A stretch of 64,000 bases of DNA from a virus (lineage: Duplodnaviria > Heunggongvirae > Uroviricota > Caudoviricetes). Numbering within the stretch: position 1 is the first letter of the stretch; each line of letters begins with the position of its first letter. The DNA lies in IMG/VR virus record IMGVR_UViG_2718218172_000010. One strand, 5' to 3'. Both the position numbers and the translations under genes were made by a program. The notes below the pieces were generated by a model. The model worked only from the letters and a program-made list of their open reading frames with translations, made no database searches and was not told where the DNA came from. Of this stretch, positions 25,794 through 31,255 are shown piece after piece.

Positions 25794-26724
25794 GGAATTA
25801 GCCGAACAGCACAGTTCGCAGCTCTCGTCCGTTCTTAAATCCGCAGTTGAAACCATCTCGTCAGACCAGGAAATCACGTTCAGGCTCTATGTCCGGCAGG
25901 TTCTGCCGCTGGATGGCTTTGTCTATTGGGTTAATGCGGAAATCATCAGTTGCGATGAACTGTGTCGCCTGAATATTGAGTCACCAACTCGTCTGAAAAT
26001 CAAAGGCAGCCTGCATCGTCAGGTTATTGCGATTCAGGACGAGTCTGTCTCGAAGGATGTGAACAACATTATTTTCACGCCTGTTCAGCAGGTTGATGAT
26101 TTTAATGTGGAAAATCCCGACGTGATCTATCTCGGTGAGTACGGCGGCGTCCAGTTCGCTTTTTCTCGAATGGAGAGCCGCTATCAGCAGTCGGGTATTT
26201 TTCATTATCGCGGCATGGCGATTTTGCCAACCATGCGTTCCCAGATTATCGACTGCGAGGAGGATATCAGCGACGAGCAGATCATATCCAACAGCATCCC
26301 GATCTGGCTGCAAATGAAAGATGCCGCGACCGTGTATCCGTCTTACCTGGTACCGCAGAACCTTCGCCCTCCGTATATCGCGGTGGATGTTCGCAACAGT
26401 ATTCCTTTGCAGGTGGCTCCCGTTGTTTTCGGTGGTGAGCGATTCCAGCTCGTCCAGGATTCGGTTCGCCTGACGCTTTACGGATTCAGCAACAAAATGG
26501 CGCTGGATCTTATCGACTCGGTGGTGAACAGGGCGCTGGAGGAGGAAAAGTTTGGTGTAACCAATATTCCGGTGGTTCAGGACGCAAAGTCGGGACAGGT
26601 TGAAATCAACGCTCTGGCGAAGAAAAAAATTGTCGATTTTGACGTGAATTACTACCAGAGCACCACCCGGGAAATATCCCGGCAGTTGATTGAAAAAGTT
26701 ATTTGTAAATATGAGGTTAAATAA
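25780..26724 (+). CDS. hypothetical structural protein
   Basis: 314 aa. Confidence 0.4.
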   Translation: MPSLEELAEQHSSQLSSVLKSAVETISSDQEITFRLYVRQVLPLDGFVYWVNAEIISCDELCRLNIESPTRLKIKGSLHRQVIAIQDESVSKDVNNIIFTPVQQVDDFNVENPDVIYLGEYGGVQFAFSRMESRYQQSGIFHYRGMAILPTMRSQIIDCEEDISDEQIISNSIPIWLQMKDAATVYPSYLVPQNLRPPYIAVDVRNSIPLQVAPVVFGGERFQLVQDSVRLTLYGFSNKMALDLIDSVVNRALEEEKFGVTNIPVVQDAKSGQVEINALAKKKIVDFDVNYYQSTTREISRQLIEKVICKYEVK

Positions 26725-28061
26725 TGGGATTTAATATCGTCACGGTGAATGTGTCCCAGACCATCGGGGCCATACCCTCGAATCTGCAACAGATGGCTGC
26801 GATTCTCTCGTTTGGTTCCACGACTCATGAGCCGGGAAAGCCTGTATTACTCACCCGTAATCAGGATATTAACGATCTGGTTAAAAATCCGATTGCTGCG
26901 TTGTCGGCGGCTGCCGCAGGAAAATCTGCGGCAAACGTCACCGTTACGATGACGCTTCCGGAAGGGAGTAACATCCGACGCGAAAACAGTTCTGAGGTGA
27001 AAATTGTGGTGTCCGGGTGTTCGCCCGACGCGTGGAATGGCGAATATACTGCTACCGTCACGGATGAAAAAACACTGACCTGGACGATTGCTGATTCTCA
27101 GCTTTCCGGTTCGCCAGTGACACTGGGGCAGTTTTCCATTGTCGGCAGTGAAAATCTGGTGACGGCAGTAAACACGTTTTTTGCCCAGGGAAATTCAGTC
27201 GGGATTTACCTGCTGGAGCTGGGAGTACAGAAAGGCGGGGTCAGTAAGGAAATCGCTGCACTGAAAGCTTATATGGAAGATCCGCTCCTGCGTTTTTATG
27301 CGTATCTGGTGCCGCAGCCGTGGGATGGTGACGCAGAATTTATCAGTCTGGCAAAACTCCACACCGCCAACGAAGCGATGCAGTATTTCTTCGTGCTGAC
27401 GAAAACGCCGGACGACACGAATTACGTTTCGCCTTATGCCGGTATTAAGTCGGTTATTGTAACGGCGGATGATACGTACCCGGCGACAAACGCGGCAGCA
27501 GCCGTAATGTGGAACTATGTTTCCGCATCACCTTCAGAAATCAACAAGGTGCCGCCGATGGCATTTCGCTATCTGCAGGCGGTAAACGCCCACAAGGGCA
27601 AAAATTCCATTCTGGCCACGATGACAAAGCAGAATATTAACTACGTCGATACGGGTGCTGAGGGTGGAATTTCCAACACGATTCTGGTGAAAGGCGTTAC
27701 CAGTGACGGTAACGATATGACGTACTGGTATTCCGTAGACTGGGTGCAGATTAACGTCGATATGCAGCTCGCCAACACGGTGATCAACGGCAGCAATAAC
27801 CCAATTAACCCGCTTTACTACAACCAGGACGGAATCGACCGTCTACAGCAGGTCGCACAGGCGGTGTTCAATACGGGCGTATCTTACGGCCTTGTCAACG
27901 GCCAGCCTGTCGTCGATGCAGTGCCTTTCCGCCAGTATATCAACACTAATCCGAATGATTACGGTATCGGGCGTTATGCAGGCCTTTCGGCCTCCTATAC
28001 GCCGATGCGCGGATTTGTCGAAATCATTTTTAACATCAATGTGACAATGCAGCTTTCGTGA
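26724..28061 (+). CDS. tail sheath protein (positional)
   Basis: 445 aa directly upstream of tube-sized gene and chaperone/tape-measure pair. Confidence 0.5.
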   Translation: MGFNIVTVNVSQTIGAIPSNLQQMAAILSFGSTTHEPGKPVLLTRNQDINDLVKNPIAALSAAAAGKSAANVTVTMTLPEGSNIRRENSSEVKIVVSGCSPDAWNGEYTATVTDEKTLTWTIADSQLSGSPVTLGQFSIVGSENLVTAVNTFFAQGNSVGIYLLELGVQKGGVSKEIAALKAYMEDPLLRFYAYLVPQPWDGDAEFISLAKLHTANEAMQYFFVLTKTPDDTNYVSPYAGIKSVIVTADDTYPATNAAAAVMWNYVSASPSEINKVPPMAFRYLQAVNAHKGKNSILATMTKQNINYVDTGAEGGISNTILVKGVTSDGNDMTYWYSVDWVQINVDMQLANTVINGSNNPINPLYYNQDGIDRLQQVAQAVFNTGVSYGLVNGQPVVDAVPFRQYINTNPNDYGIGRYAGLSASYTPMRGFVEIIFNINVTMQLS

Positions 28062-28072
28062 GGGACTGAACC

Positions 28073-28516
28073 GTGCCTAATCCAATGATCCCCGTTGGCA
28101 CCCTTAACCGGGTTCGCGCCAGCGTTAAATTCACCTCTCATTCCGAACTGAATGTGTCCGCCTCATTTCTGGCAAAAGAAGGCGTCGAATTGTCCTTTCA
28201 GGGCAATATCACGGAGTTTTTACCCGCTATGACGGGAGCCGTGCAGTCGCCGCAGCCATACATGATTTTACAGGCGCGTGTTCATCTGTTGCGTAGCCAG
28301 GCGCTGGGAAAACAATTCAAGGCGCAATGGGAAAAGAATGCCACGATCGGCGACGCAAAAGTGTATAGCGACAGCACGGTATTCGGTGACTTCGATATCT
28401 ATAACACGGCGATCACCAACGTGCAGGATATGACCTTCGCCGGGGGCGAGCCGGGTGTGGCCATCACCATTACCGGTACGTATTACATCAACTCTGAAAT
28501 GTGGGATTTGGTATGA
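28073..28516 (+). CDS. tail tube protein (positional)
   Basis: GTG start with GAGGGA SD; 147 aa. Confidence 0.5.
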   Translation: MPNPMIPVGTLNRVRASVKFTSHSELNVSASFLAKEGVELSFQGNITEFLPAMTGAVQSPQPYMILQARVHLLRSQALGKQFKAQWEKNATIGDAKVYSDSTVFGDFDIYNTAITNVQDMTFAGGEPGVAITITGTYYINSEMWDLV

Positions 28517-29130
28517 AAATCGCGCGAAATTTAAACCTGATTATTCCTGTCCAGACCGAGAAAGGTAAAGCCTGGATTCACGCCACGCCGATCAGCAAAG
28601 AGGTGTTTAAAGAGCATTTCTTCATTCTGAGTAAAACTTTTTCTGCCATTTTCTCCGAAGGTCTTGGCGTCGTTGCCGGGCCGCGCGTTGCTTTTCTGAT
28701 GCTGGAGCGGATCTCGCGTGATTCCGGTATCTGGGACGATGATAAGGGAGTTCGTAATACGCTGGTGAACGAAATAATTCGCCTGGCAAACCTTGTTTAT
28801 CCGGTGGAGGGCAAAGGTTACGACACAATCCCTCTTGATATGGCGCTGGAGCGTGAAATCGTTGAGCTGGATGATGTTGCGGGTGAACTCGTTTTTTTTA
28901 CATGCGTCTCGTCGATAAACACACCGGAGCAGACGGAACAGATGATGCTGGTAGTCAGTGGAATGTGGAACAGTCGCACTTCATCCTTGAGTCTTACGGA
29001 CTGGATTGCTTCCTTGCCGACATTGAAGTCTGCCGCCAGTTCTGGCGCGACGGTGAACACATCATCAGCGACATCCTCGACTACTCAGCCGGAGCCGGAT
29101 TCAGAGACATCTGTGCAGATTCCGGTTTGA
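28513..29130 (+). CDS. tail assembly chaperone, upstream frame
   Basis: ORF immediately upstream of tape measure; contains the T8 slippery run. Confidence 0.5.
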   Translation: MKIARNLNLIIPVQTEKGKAWIHATPISKEVFKEHFFILSKTFSAIFSEGLGVVAGPRVAFLMLERISRDSGIWDDDKGVRNTLVNEIIRLANLVYPVEGKGYDTIPLDMALEREIVELDDVAGELVFFTCVSSINTPEQTEQMMLVVSGMWNSRTSSLSLTDWIASLPTLKSAASSGATVNTSSATSSTTQPEPDSETSVQIPV

Positions 29131-29195
29131 ATGTAAAAACAGCAGCTCAGTTTCGTGAGCTGCTCAAACTCAAAAATCCCGCAGGAGTATTGTGA
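28902..29195 (+). CDS. tail assembly chaperone -1 frame extension
   Basis: -1 frame opens at 28887 right after an in-frame TGA (28884-28886); T-run 28892-28899; ends at tape-measure start. Confidence 0.45.
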   Translation: MRLVDKHTGADGTDDAGSQWNVEQSHFILESYGLDCFLADIEVCRQFWRDGEHIISDILDYSAGAGFRDICADSGLNVKTAAQFRELLKLKNPAGVL

Positions 29196-31255
29196 TGGCT
29201 GGTAACCAGATGCCAGTTCTGACGCTGGACGTTAATGAAGAACACCTCAAGCGGCTTGAGGCGATATTTGAAAAGTATCGCAACGGACTGATGATTGGCC
29301 CTGCCGGGACACCGCTTAAAATGCCTTCAAATACAGGTCAGGGAGGTGGCGCCCGGCAGACAACCACAGGCGGAGAAGCCAATCAGGCTCCCAGGAAACC
29401 ATCTTCACCTGCGCCCACCGATGGACGTTTAATGGATGAAAAAGGGCGCTTTGTCGGTAGCGGAAAAACACCTGATTCGCTGGTGAGCAACTATAAAGGT
29501 CGCGGCGAAACGATGTTTGATAAGTATCTCAGTAGTCTGGGTAAAAACGCCAAACAGACGCTGAAAACTTACAAGCAGATCAATTCTACGCTACGGACGA
29601 CCACTTCGAGATTAAACAACCTGTTTAAAACCACCGTATCGTGGGGGACAAAACTTGCGGTTATGGGCGTTGCCGGGCCGTTCGGCTTTGGCATGATGTC
29701 CCGTAGTGTTGTAGAGAAACAGAAAAATGCTGATGAATTGCAGGCAACGCCAGGAGAGTTAAAGGCGGCAGAAAGCACTTATTCGCCTTATTTTTCCGGT
29801 GTTGGCAATGTGCTCAATACACTGGCAGCAGCACAAAATGATATATCGCATCCTGCCCGCGTCGGCCTACTTAATCTGGGGCTAAATCCTGATAAAAACG
29901 CGACTGAAAACCTGCCTGTATTCCTGAAAAAGGTTGCAGCGCTGGCAAAGGAATATCAGGGAACTGGTCTTACCCAGAGCAATTTCAGAGGAATGGGGCT
30001 TGGATGGGTAAATTTTGGTCTTACTAACCAGTTAGTCAAATATCAGGACAAAATACCTGAACTGAACAAAGAGTTTTCGTTACGTGCAGCACAAAATGAT
30101 TCGTTACTGACCTCTGCACATACAAGTAAATATCAGAATCTTACCAGTAACTTAGAAAATAACTGGGATCGACTTACCAGTGGGTTTCAGGGAGCGATGT
30201 CGGGTAATTCTGAACAACTGATTGGAATATCTAATGGCGTCACGAATGCTGCCCTGAATTTCATGAACGGTGAGAACTTTAAAAGGATTCTGACAGATGT
30301 AGAAACGGGGCTGGATAAACTTGGTAAGTACGTTAATGGCCCGGATTTTAATAACGACCTGAACAATTTTGCCGAAAACGTTGCAAAGGTCACCAAAGCT
30401 CTTGGCGGATTTGTTGGCTTTGCGGTTGAACATCCCTGGCTTTTTGGGGCCGCAGTGCTTGCCGGGCCATCAAGAGTTGGTGCTGTGGCAGCTACAACAA
30501 CCGGAGTTGCCGCCCGTGTTGTAGGCGGAAGCCTTCTAGGGGCTACAGCTGGAACAGTAGCAGGATTGGCTATTCCTACGAATAACACACCTACCACCAG
30601 TGAGGAAATGAAAGGGCTGGAAGGCCGTTTTAATTTTGAATATTTTAATGAAGTGCAGGAGTGGCAAAAAAACAATCCTGGCAAGGTCTGGCCTGGAGGA
30701 TTGCAGAAATATTCGAACAATGTAAACAGATCAACATATTTATCCAGAGGGATCAGGAATAACAATCCCGGAAACCTTAATTTCGCAGGACAAAAAGGGG
30801 CTACTCTGGAATCAGGGCCAAATGCCCGTTTTGCCAGCTTCCCGACGATGCTGGAAGGTATCGCCGCCTTAGATCGGCAGGTCATGCTATACCTGAAACG
30901 AGGCAAAAATACGATTGATCAGATTATTGATATTTATGCCCCTTCATCTGATGGAAATAACACATCGTCCTATAAAAGCTATCTCTCTCAGTACACTGGA
31001 TTAGGTGTTAAGGAGAAAATCGATGGTTCTAATTTTGAGCTAATGAGAAAGCTAATTCAGGGCATTATTAACCATGAAAATGGGGCCGCCGCTCGTGCTG
31101 TAAGTGGCGATGATGTGATGCGGGCGCTGGCAATGAACCGGGGGAACGTATATTCACCAAATAATGCTTCTCAGGTAATCAGGCTCGAAGTTCAACAAAA
31201 ACCAGGTTCAGATATACTGGCACAACTCGCCGGAATGCAACAAATACCGGGGTAA
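29195..31255 (+). CDS. tail tape measure protein
   Basis: 686 aa with Gly/Ala-rich hydrophobic segment, downstream of frameshift chaperone pair; AGGAG SD. Confidence 0.65.
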   Translation: MAGNQMPVLTLDVNEEHLKRLEAIFEKYRNGLMIGPAGTPLKMPSNTGQGGGARQTTTGGEANQAPRKPSSPAPTDGRLMDEKGRFVGSGKTPDSLVSNYKGRGETMFDKYLSSLGKNAKQTLKTYKQINSTLRTTTSRLNNLFKTTVSWGTKLAVMGVAGPFGFGMMSRSVVEKQKNADELQATPGELKAAESTYSPYFSGVGNVLNTLAAAQNDISHPARVGLLNLGLNPDKNATENLPVFLKKVAALAKEYQGTGLTQSNFRGMGLGWVNFGLTNQLVKYQDKIPELNKEFSLRAAQNDSLLTSAHTSKYQNLTSNLENNWDRLTSGFQGAMSGNSEQLIGISNGVTNAALNFMNGENFKRILTDVETGLDKLGKYVNGPDFNNDLNNFAENVAKVTKALGGFVGFAVEHPWLFGAAVLAGPSRVGAVAATTTGVAARVVGGSLLGATAGTVAGLAIPTNNTPTTSEEMKGLEGRFNFEYFNEVQEWQKNNPGKVWPGGLQKYSNNVNRSTYLSRGIRNNNPGNLNFAGQKGATLESGPNARFASFPTMLEGIAALDRQVMLYLKRGKNTIDQIIDIYAPSSDGNNTSSYKSYLSQYTGLGVKEKIDGSNFELMRKLIQGIINHENGAAARAVSGDDVMRALAMNRGNVYSPNNASQVIRLEVQQKPGSDILAQLAGMQQIPG

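What the first reader, a model, noticed from the sequence alone, without database searches (positions are those of the whole stretch)
28884..28905. Programmed -1 frameshift site in the tail assembly chaperone pair
The -1 frame is closed by TGA at 28884-28886 and opens exactly at a run of eight T (28892-28899) inside the upstream chaperone ORF, then stays open 294 nt to the tape-measure start. This is the arrangement of lambda G/GT-type chaperone frameshifting.
Basis: seen in the sequence. Interest (0 to 1): 0.45.

Follow-up and report, generated by a model that had tools for sequence, protein, structure and literature searches.

The report
Tail chaperone frameshift site, unannotated family
This is very probably a real programmed -1 ribosomal frameshift in a prophage tail-assembly chaperone gene: an ordinary kind of phage signal, but in a protein family no database recognises and with an unusually long stretch of DNA read in two frames.

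Summary
TGA lies at 28884-86, a run of eight T at 28892-99, and the -1 frame stays open to a TGA (29193-95) that overlaps the tape-measure ATG (29195).

In frame the site reads GTT TTT TTT ACA. That gives a canonical X_XXY_YYZ heptamer, T_TTT_TTT (28893-99), at codons 128-129 of a 205-codon ORF. The ORF lies between the sheath and putative tube genes and a tape-measure gene with a lytic transglycosylase domain.

I examined 171 non-identical relatives, down to about 30% protein identity. They include E. coli prophages and Klebsiella, Pantoea and Shewanella phages.
- The in-phase heptamer is T_TTT_TTT in 170 and T_TTT_TTC in one.
- The preceding codon always ends in T, although the amino acid varies (V, I, C, A, S, T).
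- The -1 ORF encodes a conserved domain of about 100 residues.
- Many clades have no start codon in that ORF, so it can only be reached by recoding.

The best explanation is -1 ribosomal frameshifting that yields a 205-aa G-like and a 227-aa GT-like chaperone.

Two things differ from lambda G/GT. The slip site lies 76 codons before the 0-frame stop, inside a predicted helix. Both frames of the overlap are conserved.

No conserved downstream RNA structure was found. No product has been observed, and no database record annotates the frameshift.

The parts
26724..28061 (+). Tail sheath gene (445 aa)
   Evidence: phrog_205 'tail sheath', E 6.2e-54; ORF.
28073..28516 (+). Putative tail tube gene (147 aa). 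Assigned by position and size only.
   Evidence: Lies directly after the sheath gene. Matches phrog_6566 (unknown function) at 5e-79. No Pfam, NCBIfam or PDB sequence match.
28513..29130 (+). 0-frame chaperone ORF, the 'G-like' product (205 aa). This is the only product annotated by PGAP.
   Evidence: Matches phrog_11810 (unknown function) at 2e-87. AlphaFold2 model has pLDDT 90.9, with a folded domain at 1-170 and a disordered S/T-rich tail at 171-205. The tail motifs LW..TSL..T.F..SLP and the C-terminal (I/V/L)P(S/V) are conserved down to about 30% identity.
28884..28886 (+). TGA that closes the -1 frame upstream of the site
   Evidence: It is not conserved in distant relatives that have GGC GAG instead of GGT GAA, so it is not a functional element.
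28893..28899 (+). Slippery heptamer T_TTT_TTT (X_XXY_YYZ in the 0 frame). P-site Phe128 is TTT 28894-96 and A-site Phe129 is TTT 28897-99. The eighth T (28892) is the middle base of Val127 GTT.
   Evidence: The heptamer is in phase in 171 of 171 non-identical relatives: 170 TTTTTTT and 1 TTTTTTC. Run length is 8 in 154, 7 in 13 and 9 in 4. The preceding codon is GTT, ATT, TGT, GCT, AGT or ACT, always ending in T. Elsewhere in the same genes TTT makes up 48% of Phe codons and T is the third base in 30% of comparable codons.
28899..29195 (+). -1 frame segment ('T domain'): 98 codons from TAC 28899-28901 to stop TGA 29193-95
   Evidence: Matches phrog_14324 (unknown function) at 4e-60. The motif YG..F..D(I/V)(D/E)..R.(F/Y)WR(D/E)G...LD(Y/W)...GF.....(F/Y)R.R is conserved. 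Y1, Y33, G34 and R86 are invariant in 16 deep clades at 18-35% identity.
28513..29195 (+). Predicted frameshift product, 'GT-like' (227 aa): residues 1-129 from the 0 frame (28513-28899) joined to 98 residues from the -1 frame (28899-29192). T 28899 is read twice.
   Evidence: The same protein is encoded directly by rare T9 alleles: P0001 (85% identical, 6 contigs) and P0125 (40% identical), both with the junction ...FF|Y.... The diagnostic tryptic peptide is EIVELDDVAGELVFFYMR.
28905..28935 (+). Weak 5-bp hairpin (CGTCT 28905-09 pairs with AGACG 28931-35), 5 nt after the heptamer. Probably not a stimulator.
   Evidence: folding z-scores are +2.0 for 91 nt and +0.06 for 51 nt; consensus energy -3.3 kcal/mol in 17 sequences, with one compensatory change. 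The hairpin is absent from the Chronis clade.
29183..29187 (+). AGGAG ribosome-binding site of the tape-measure gene. It lies inside the last codons of the T domain, 7 nt before ATG 29195.
   Evidence: Read.
29195..31255 (+). Tape-measure protein with a C-terminal lytic transglycosylase domain (686 aa)
   Evidence: Matches phrog_7694, phrog_2276 'tail length tape measure protein' (4e-30) and phrog_873 / phrog_7182 (endolysin / tail injection transglycosylase). Residues 513-632 match PDB endolysin 7q47 at 2e-11. Klebsiella phage RothC annotates the homologous position as 'tape measure protein'.

Best explanation

**How it would work**
1. Ribosomes translate the 0-frame ORF (28513-29130) and reach U_UUU_UUU (28893-99), with tRNA-Phe on UUU in both the P and A sites.
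2. In a minority of passages both tRNAs re-pair one base back (UUU and UUU at 28893-98).
3. Decoding then continues at UAC 28899 in the -1 frame, down to UGA 29193-95.

**Products**
- The major product is a 205-aa 'G-like' protein: a folded domain at 1-170 plus a disordered Ser/Thr-rich tail.
- The minor product is a 227-aa 'GT-like' protein: residues 1-129 plus a 98-residue helical T domain.

**Likely roles.** By analogy with lambda gpG/gpGT and P2 E/E+E', the shared N-terminal part would coat the tape-measure protein, and the T domain would recruit the tube protein. Neither product would be expected in the virion.

**What is shown and what is inferred**
- Shown by sequence: the heptamer, its phase, its conservation at synonymous sites, coding conservation of both frames, the lack of a start codon for the T domain in many relatives, and the synteny.
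- Inferred: that the shift is ribosomal rather than transcriptional, its efficiency, and the chaperone roles of the two products.
For: **Anatomy.** The in-phase heptamer, the upstream -1 stop, and a -1 ORF that ends in an ATGA overlap with the tape-measure start.

**Conservation of the site at synonymous positions**
- 171 of 171 non-identical relatives keep T_TTT_TTY in phase.
- The codon before Phe-Phe is GTT, ATT, TGT, GCT, AGT or ACT and never ends in another base.
- Elsewhere in the same genes TTT is only 48% of Phe codons and T only 30% of third bases.
- For 16 deep clades this gives about 1e-8 for the wobble T and 1e-5 for the first TTT.
- F129 is the only invariant residue in 111 diverse homologues.

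**The heptamer, not the run length, is the conserved unit.** All 13 sequences with seven T in phase keep exactly X_XXY_YYZ. Examples are Pantoea phage PdC23 (TGT TTT TTT), L176 (GCT TTT TTT), L177 (AGT TTT TTT) and L081 (GTT TTT TTC).

**The -1 ORF is a real domain**
- It is 94-116 codons long in 165 of the 171 non-identical sequences (the others are the T9 variants or are truncated), with invariant Y1, Y33, G34 and R86 at 18-35% identity.
- It stays open with a median probability of 0.017 if only the 0-frame peptide were selected.

**The T domain needs recoding.** 80 of 166 sequences have no ATG, and 71 of 166 have no ATG, GTG or TTG, in its first 60 codons.

**Context.** Sheath, tube-sized gene, chaperone pair and tape measure are in the expected order.

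**The motif is competent.**
- H_HH.U_UU.Y heptamers are among the most efficient -1 motifs in E. coli.
- U_UU.U_UU.U and U_UU.U_UU.C exceed 0.1% without stimulators.
- UUUUUUU is otherwise avoided in E. coli genes (PMC4066793).

**Precedent.** P2 E/E+E' uses TTTTTTG without a downstream structure (PMC3091744). Lambda G/GT is the general model (PMC5009743).
Against: - No fusion protein, Ribo-seq data or reporter assay is available.
- No significant or conserved downstream RNA structure was found. An upstream Shine-Dalgarno-like sequence is weak in this clade (-3.8 kcal/mol). Efficiency may therefore be low.
- A run of eight U could also cause RNA polymerase slippage, which sequence alone cannot exclude.
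- The slip site is 228 nt before the 0-frame stop. Annotated chaperone frameshifts average 26-36 nt (PMC10885494).
- The proteins match no known chaperone family by sequence. The PDB fold search found nothing. The viral-model search gave only weak hits.
- The 'chaperone' role therefore rests on synteny and on the frameshift architecture itself.
- Rare T9 and T7 alleles exist.
Confidence: 0.8

Rival explanations
1. Transcriptional slippage. RNA polymerase stutters on the T8 template run and adds one extra U to a fraction of transcripts. Standard translation of those mRNAs then gives the same 227-aa fusion.
For: - The run is 8 T in 154 of 171 non-identical relatives.
- UUUUUUU is avoided in all three frames of E. 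coli genes, partly attributed to transcriptional slippage (PMC4066793).
- T9 and T7 DNA alleles show that the run is slippage-prone at the DNA level.
Against: - The conserved unit is the in-phase heptamer, not the run length. In 13 non-identical sequences, among them representatives of 8 of the 16 deep clades, the run is only 7 (T7, or T6C-type T_TTT_TTC). It always occupies exactly X_XXY_YYZ.
- Phase would not matter for polymerase slippage. As far as I know (not checked here), such slippage in E. coli becomes appreciable at runs of about 9 or more.
- The 8th T is explained by the hydrophobic residue at codon 127 (GTT or ATT).
Confidence: 0.1
2. An independent overlapping gene. The -1 ORF is translated on its own from ATG 28902 as a 97-aa protein, which is how PHROG phrog_14324 and some gene callers treat it. 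No recoding is involved.
For: - ATG 28902 is present and conserved throughout the E. coli clade.
- ORF 28902..29195 is listed as a normal ORF.
- Some predicted proteins start there (P0127).
Against: - The ATG is lost in more distant relatives, which read YL.., YI.., YG.., YC.. at that position.
- 80 of 166 sequences have no ATG, and 71 of 166 have no ATG, GTG or TTG, within 60 codons. The T domain and the heptamer are conserved all the same.
- There is no Shine-Dalgarno sequence at a useful distance. The nearest, GGGTGA, ends 15 nt upstream, and the spacer is the T-run.
- This model does not explain the synonymous-site conservation of T_TTT_TTT.
Confidence: 0.03
3. A sequencing error or a pseudogene. 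The true gene is a single-frame 227-aa fusion (T9), and T8 is a homopolymer miscall or an inactivating mutation in a decaying prophage.
For: - Direct-fusion ORFs exist in a few assemblies: L041, L093 (P0125) and L094/L095 (P0001, in 6 contigs).
- PGAP flags the T7 copy in E. coli RM9088 as 'frameshifted'.
Against: - T8, or seven T in phase, is found in 167 of 171 non-identical sequences. These come from complete genomes, isolated phages and metagenomes made with different technologies.
- The 0-frame tail after the site is conserved to about 30% identity. It is always 53-83 codons long in sequences with the normal seven- or eight-T run, and is predicted to be part of the fold. An out-of-frame artefact would not behave this way.
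Confidence: 0.02

Closest known systems
Bacteriophage lambda gpG / gpGT tail assembly chaperone -1 frameshift (Levin 1993; Xu, Hendrix and Duda 2004, 2013, 2014, as summarised in PMC5009743)
   Same: - The gene pair lies immediately upstream of the tape-measure gene and downstream of the major tail / tube gene.
- Two products share an N-terminus.
- The longer product is made by a -1 shift on an X_XXY_YYZ heptamer.
- The -1 ORF has no start of its own.
- No strong stimulatory RNA structure is present.
   Different: - The heptamer is U_UUU_UUU rather than G_GGA_AAG.
- The phage has a contractile tail.
[quoted passage not shown] Here the shift is at codon 129 of 205, 228 nt before the stop, inside a predicted helix.
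- The GT-like product therefore lacks the last 40 or so folded residues of the G-like product, and both frames of the overlap are conserved.
- There is no detectable sequence similarity. Pfam, NCBIfam, PHROG chaperone families and PDB all found nothing.
Bacteriophage P2 E / E+E' frameshift in the FETUD tail operon (Christie et al. 2002, as described in PMC3091744)
   Same: - It is a myovirus with the order sheath, tube, chaperone pair, tape measure.
- It uses a T-rich slippery heptamer (TTTTTTG in P2, TTTTTTT here).
- It has no downstream hairpin.
- The -1 ORF runs up to the tape-measure gene.
   Different: - P2 E is 91 aa and E+E' is 142 aa. Here the products are 205 and 227 aa.
- Here the 0-frame product is nearly as long as the fusion, because the 0 frame continues for 76 codons.
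- No sequence similarity was found.
Bacterial -1 frameshift cassettes with stimulators (dnaX; IS3 / IS911 family)
   Same: A -1 shift on an X_XXY_YYZ heptamer decoded by E. coli ribosomes. U_UU.U_UU.C occurs among IS-element heptamers.
   Different: - Those sites combine the heptamer with an upstream Shine-Dalgarno-like sequence, a downstream hairpin or pseudoknot, or both.
- Here no conserved downstream structure was found.
- Upstream there is only an ambiguous enrichment of SD-like sequence, confounded by the peptide motif.
Overprinted (dual-coding) viral genes
   Same: - About 230 nt are read in two frames, and both products are conserved.
- The variable linker of one frame (-1 codons 1-32) lies over the folded helices of the other.
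- The T core lies largely over the other frame's disordered Ser/Thr-rich tail.
   Different: Access to the second frame is by frameshifting within one translation event, not by a separate start. The two products share their first 129 residues.

Membership tests
G/GT-type tail assembly chaperone frameshift (Xu et al. 2004 class) | The gene pair lies between the major tail / tube gene and the tape-measure gene, on the same strand | tested here: met
   The order is sheath 26724-28061, tube-sized gene 28073-28516, chaperone 28513-29130 / 28899-29195, tape measure 29195-31255. The same order holds in the Chronis, PdC23, QDWS and RothC phages.
G/GT-type tail assembly chaperone frameshift (Xu et al. 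2004 class) | A slippery sequence in the correct phase, conserved among relatives | tested here: met
   T_TTT_TTY is in phase in 171 of 171 non-identical sequences. Synonymous positions are fixed, against 48% TTT and 30% third-position T elsewhere in the same genes.
G/GT-type tail assembly chaperone frameshift (Xu et al. 2004 class) | The downstream ORF is in the -1 (or +1) frame, encodes a conserved domain and has no start of its own | tested here: met
   The -1 ORF is 94-116 codons long in 165 of the 171 sequences and has conserved motifs. There is no ATG in 80 of 166 sequences and no ATG, GTG or TTG in 71 of 166 within 60 codons.
G/GT-type tail assembly chaperone frameshift (Xu et al. 2004 class) | [quoted passage not shown] | tested here: not met
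   The heptamer ends 228 nt (76 codons) before the 0-frame stop. The distance is 53-83 codons across the family where the run is seven or eight T. Reference values come from PMC10885494 and PMC5009743. This is a typical feature of the class, not a mechanistic requirement.
G/GT-type tail assembly chaperone frameshift (Xu et al. 2004 class) | Two products are made in a fixed ratio, and the fusion is demonstrated | not testable with these tools
   This needs mass spectrometry, western blotting or a reporter assay.
G/GT-type tail assembly chaperone frameshift (Xu et al. 2004 class) | The G part binds the tape-measure protein, the T part binds the tube protein, and both are absent from virions | not testable with these tools
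   This is inferred by analogy only.
Known tail-assembly-chaperone protein families (Pfam Phage_TAC and gpG / gpT families, NCBIfam, PHROG chaperone families, solved structures) | Sequence match to a family profile | tested here: not met
   - Pfam: no hit for the window proteins or for 15 + 16 diverse homologues.
- NCBIfam: none.
- PHROGs: only phrog_11810 and phrog_14324, both 'unknown function'.
- PDB profile search: none.
Known tail-assembly-chaperone protein families (Pfam Phage_TAC and gpG / gpT families, NCBIfam, PHROG chaperone families, solved structures) | Fold similarity to a known chaperone | tested here: inconclusive
   - The model is of high confidence (pLDDT 90.9).
- PDB: nothing below E 0.9 and TM below 0.22.
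- BFVD: the best hit is an uncharacterised protein (E 1e-4).
- About 8 of the top 50 weak BFVD hits (E 0.03-0.9, query TM 0.20-0.36) are named tail assembly chaperone or pre-tape-measure frameshift protein.
Transcriptional-slippage recoding sites | Homopolymer length is the conserved property and reading phase is irrelevant | tested here: not met
   Run length varies (7 in 13 sequences, 8 in 154), while the X_XXY_YYZ phase is invariant.

The most novel reading that the evidence does not exclude
The frameshift is more than a C-terminal add-on of the lambda type. It would act as a mid-domain switch inside a long, anciently conserved dual-coding region.

- The 0-frame product completes a 170-residue fold and ends in a conserved (I/V/L)P(S/V) tail.
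- The shifted product drops the last third of that fold (two helices and a strand, residues 130-170). It replaces them with a linker and a T domain encoded over the same nucleotides.
- G-like and GT-like would then be structurally different chaperones, not 'G' and 'G plus T'.
- This whole phage lineage, which includes the Klebsiella phages placed in the proposed family Felixviridae, would have maintained 53-83 overlapping codons under double selection.
Probability: 0.55. Interest if true: 0.55.

Novelty: new member of a known kind. Interest (0 to 1): 0.4.

Why it matters
**Annotation.**
- Every record examined annotates only the 205-aa ORF. These are RefSeq/PGAP E. coli genomes and the phages Rac-SA53, vB_Apl-pPE4, Chronis, RothC/D, PdC23 and QDWS.
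- They leave a 64-nt 'intergenic' gap, or a stray small ORF, before the tape-measure gene.
- Both PHROG families are labelled 'unknown function'.
- Recognising the site names two proteins (G-like and GT-like chaperones). It also fixes the tail module for a widespread group of enterobacterial prophages and for the related Klebsiella, Pantoea and Shewanella phages.

**Gene prediction.** This is a clean, deeply conserved example of a chaperone frameshift whose slip site lies about 230 nt from the in-frame stop. The PRFect predictor scores its candidate sites by that distance. Its authors attribute missed sites partly to distances above 30 nt.

**Biology.** The long overlap, with both frames conserved, gives a tractable case for asking how two proteins are encoded over the same nucleotides. 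It also lets one ask whether the G-specific C-terminal module has a function that GT must lack.

Tried and rejected
- **Downstream stimulatory RNA.**
  - Single-sequence folds of 28900-28990 and 28900-28950 are no more stable than shuffles (z +2.0 and +0.06).
  - RNAalifold on 17 E. coli-clade sequences gives only a 5-bp stem (-3.3 kcal/mol, one compensatory change).
  - On 7 Chronis-clade sequences it gives unrelated pairings. No conserved stimulator was found.
- **Upstream Shine-Dalgarno-like stimulator.**
  - Anti-SD pairing is enriched family-wide (median -6.1 against -2.6 kcal/mol).
  - It is weak in this clade (-3.8) and is confounded by the E-V-E-G peptide motif. Left open.
- **Independent start at ATG 28902.** Rejected, because the ATG is not conserved outside the E. 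coli clade.
- **'Direct fusion' homologues as proof of a natural single-frame gene.** The 226-233-aa proteins turned out to be T9 variants (P0001, P0125), or assemblies with indels elsewhere (P0002, P0003 and P0004). They confirm the junction but not a separate architecture.
- **The 64-71% 'coverage' of the fusion query by 205-aa proteins.** This looked as if the shift point moved. It is only BLASTP extension into the alternative frame's weak similarity.
- **Codon-position tallies among close relatives.**
  - The overlap gave 10/20/21 variable sites by codon position.
  - That is compatible with dual coding but not decisive.
  - I replaced it with synonymous-shuffle tests and deep homologues.
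- **Homology to known chaperones.** Pfam, NCBIfam, PHROGs, PDB sequence and PDB fold searches all gave no assignment.
- **Structure of the fusion.** The T domain was modelled at low confidence (pLDDT 40-64, 11-sequence alignment), so I did not use it for a fold search.
- **The search for related loci on genome contigs.** It found pattern matches but confirmed none, for reasons I do not understand. IMG/VR, RefSeq E. coli and GenBank phages were used instead.
Full report
**1. The observation**

The sequence is as described.
- TGA is at 28884-86 and eight T are at 28892-99.
- The upstream ORF (ATG 28513, or GTG 28501, to 29130) reads ...GGT GAA CTC GTT TTT TTT ACA TGC... (G E L V F F T C).
- The -1 frame reads TGA ACT CGT TTT TTT TAC ATG CGT... 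and stays open to TGA 29193-95.
- That stop overlaps the start of the next large gene (GTGATG, ATG 29195). This ATG is also the start used by PGAP in an identical E. coli genome.
- An AGGAG lies 7 nt before it.

In the 0 frame the last seven T form a canonical X_XXY_YYZ heptamer, T_TTT_TTT (28893-99), with Phe128 and Phe129 as the P- and A-site codons. A -1 shift gives ...ELVFF|YMRLVDK..., a 227-aa product.

A T-run on its own is unremarkable. T7 occurs 33 times in the window against 30.9 expected.

One qualification is needed. The site is at codon 128-129 of 205, not near the end of the ORF.

**2. Context**

- The window carries an E. coli prophage. The region is 100% identical to E. coli cq9, U90 and ETEC1747 and to GenBank PP818812. 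It is 91% identical to Escherichia phage Rac-SA53.
- Upstream lie a tail sheath gene (phrog_205, E 6e-54) and a 147-aa tube-sized gene.
- Downstream lies a 686-aa protein that matches tape-measure and transglycosylase PHROGs and a PDB endolysin domain.
- This is the P2/Mu-type order: sheath, tube, chaperone pair, tape measure.
- No record annotates a frameshift. PGAP and the phage submitters call only the 205-aa ORF and leave 29131-29194 uncovered.

**3. Conservation of the site**

I collected homologous loci from four sources:
- RefSeq E. coli genomes;
- IMG/VR;
- GenBank phages: Klebsiella phages Chronis and RothC, Pantoea phage PdC23 and Shewanella phage QDWS, at about 31% identity;
- metagenomic contigs.

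This gave 171 non-identical sequences.
- The in-phase heptamer is TTTTTTT in 170 and TTTTTTC in one. Both fit H_HH.U_UU.Y, a class listed among the most efficient -1 motifs in E. coli (PMC4066793).
- The codon before Phe-Phe encodes V, I, C, A, S or T. It always ends in T: GTT 136, ATT 23, TGT 6, GCT 3, AGT 2, ACT 1.
- Elsewhere in the N-terminal domains of 43 representatives, TTT is 48% of Phe codons and T is 30% of comparable third positions.
- Counting only 16 deep clades, the wobble T alone has a probability of about 1e-8 and the first TTT about 1e-5.
- In an alignment of 111 homologues at 30-45% identity, F129 is the only invariant residue.
- Run length is 8 in 154 sequences, 7 in 13 and 9 in 4. 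Where it is 7, the run occupies exactly the heptamer.
- So the conserved unit is the phased heptamer, not the homopolymer length.

**4. The -1 ORF is a real domain that needs recoding**

- In 165 of the 171 non-identical sequences the -1 frame is open for 94-116 codons from the heptamer (the rest are the T9 variants or are truncated). In the window's own clade it ends in an ATGA-type overlap with the tape-measure start. In some other clades it ends a little before or after that start.
- Its product is conserved: YG..F..D(I/V)(D/E)..R.(F/Y)WR(D/E)G...LD(Y/W)...GF...(F/Y)R.R.
- Y1, Y33, G34 and R86 are invariant across 16 clades that share only 18-35% identity.
- If only the 0-frame peptide were under selection, the -1 frame would stay open across the overlap with a median probability of 0.017. 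For this sequence the figure is 0.0035.
- The ATG at 28902 is conserved in the E. coli clade but not beyond it.
- 80 of 166 sequences have no ATG, and 71 of 166 have no ATG, GTG or TTG, in the first 60 codons.
- The T domain therefore cannot generally be made by independent initiation.

**5. The 0-frame tail is also real**

Unlike lambda G, the 0 frame continues for 76 codons here, and for 53-83 across the family where the run is seven or eight T.
- The tail is conserved to about 30% identity. The motifs are LW...TSL..T.F..SLP, then a Ser/Thr-rich stretch, then a terminal (I/V/L)P(S/V). L168 is invariant in 15 diverse homologues, and S167 and L168 are at least 90% conserved in 111.
- AlphaFold2 with the 111-sequence alignment gives a confident model (pLDDT 90.9, pTM 0.81).
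- In that model the slip site lies inside helix 119-135. Residues 130-170 (a helix, a strand, a helix) belong to the fold, and 171-205 are disordered.
- About 230 nt are thus read in two frames, both under selection.
- The variable linker of the -1 product (codons 1-32) lies over the folded 0-frame helices. The T core lies largely over the disordered 0-frame tail.
- In annotated chaperone frameshifts the slip site is on average 26-36 nt from the in-frame stop (PMC10885494). Here it is 228 nt.

**6. Stimulators**

- No significant downstream structure was found (z +2.0 and +0.06).
- Alignment folding finds only a weak 5-bp stem in the E. coli clade and nothing shared with the Chronis clade.
- This matches P2 E/E+E', which shifts on TTTTTTG without a hairpin (PMC3091744).
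- SD-like GAGG / GAAGG sequences 9-19 nt upstream are enriched family-wide. They are weak in this clade and are confounded by a conserved peptide motif.

**7. Length variants**

- T9 alleles encode the fusion directly. They are L041, the metagenomic L093 (P0125), and P0001, which occurs in six assemblies from different sequencing runs. L088, which also has T9, carries other indels.
- One E. coli genome (RM9088) has T7 read in the wrong frame, and PGAP marks it 'frameshifted'.
- These variants are rare (about 3%) and are what a homopolymer is expected to produce. They confirm the predicted junction (...FF|Y...). They do not suggest that the run is free to vary.

**8. Family membership**

- The proteins match no Pfam, NCBIfam or PDB sequence. 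They match only two 'unknown function' PHROGs.
- The confident model has no PDB fold match.
- Against predicted viral structures it gives one good hit to an uncharacterised protein. It also gives a scatter of weak hits, about eight of which are named tail assembly chaperone.
- So it works like a G/GT or E/E+E' pair, but it is not a detectable member of any named chaperone protein family. Its chaperone role is inferred from synteny and architecture.

**9. Verdict**

- The most likely mechanism is -1 ribosomal frameshifting on U_UUU_UUU (confidence 0.8).
- The main rival is transcriptional slippage on the same run (0.1). Independent initiation (0.03) and artefact or pseudogene (0.02) are unlikely.
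- The kind of feature is well known. What is new is its recognition in an unannotated, widespread family, together with the long, doubly conserved overlap and a slip site inside the fold.
- Interest is moderate (0.4). A direct demonstration by junction-peptide mass spectrometry or a reporter with a TTC TTC mutant is still missing.

Noticed in passing
window 28073-29400 (whole prophage region): GenBank PP818812 'Actinobacillus phage vB_Apl-pPE4' is 100% identical here to this window. The chromosomes of E. coli cq9, U90 and ETEC1747 are likewise 100% identical over 28513-29200. The Actinobacillus host label therefore looks doubtful. This could be an E. coli prophage picked up during isolation.
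   Followed up: no
L041, L093, L094, L095 (T9); L012 = E. coli RM9088 NZ_CP042298 (T7); equivalent to window 28892-28899: Rare alleles have one T more, so the 227-aa fusion is encoded directly. P0001 is seen in six assemblies from different sequencing runs. One allele has one T fewer, giving a truncated 134-aa product that PGAP flags as 'frameshifted'. Whether these are real variants (defective prophages?) or homopolymer errors is unknown.
   Followed up: partly
L012, L013, L014, L016 (E. coli RM9088, ETEC1749, STEC346, ETEC4079), positions 1-404: In these genomes the chaperone gene directly follows a DUF2213-domain gene instead of the tube gene, so the sheath and tube genes are not at this position. 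These may be a mosaic relative or a deleted prophage.
   Followed up: no
window 28874-28890 and the equivalent positions in 43 representative loci: SD-like GAGGT / GAAGG motifs lie 9-19 nt upstream of the heptamer in many family members. Median anti-SD duplex energy is -6.1 kcal/mol against -2.6 for background windows. The window's own clade is weak (-3.8). This could be a frameshift stimulator, or only a by-product of the conserved E-V-E-G peptide.
   Followed up: partly
window 28899-28901: The first -1-frame codon is always TAY (Tyr) in 16 deep clades, so the base after the heptamer is almost always A. The one exception is L081, where the heptamer is T_TTT_TTC and the codon is CTC. It is unclear whether this reflects a need for Tyr in the fusion or a 3' context effect on slippage.
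   Followed up: no
window 29131-29194: Every annotation examined leaves this 64-nt stretch as intergenic between the 205-aa ORF and the tape-measure gene. It actually encodes the last 21 residues of the T domain and contains the tape-measure ribosome-binding site (AGGAG 29183-87).
   Followed up: yes
window 29195-31255: The tape-measure protein carries a C-terminal lytic transglycosylase / endolysin-like domain. Residues 513-632 match PDB 7q47 at E 2e-11, and PGAP names it 'transglycosylase SLT domain-containing protein'.
   Followed up: partly
Genome-contig scan (no window coordinates): the search for related loci with P0001 on genome contigs reported 128 pattern matches but confirmed none by tblastn. 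Yet the same family is abundant in RefSeq E. coli and IMG/VR. This is probably a tool artefact.
   Followed up: no
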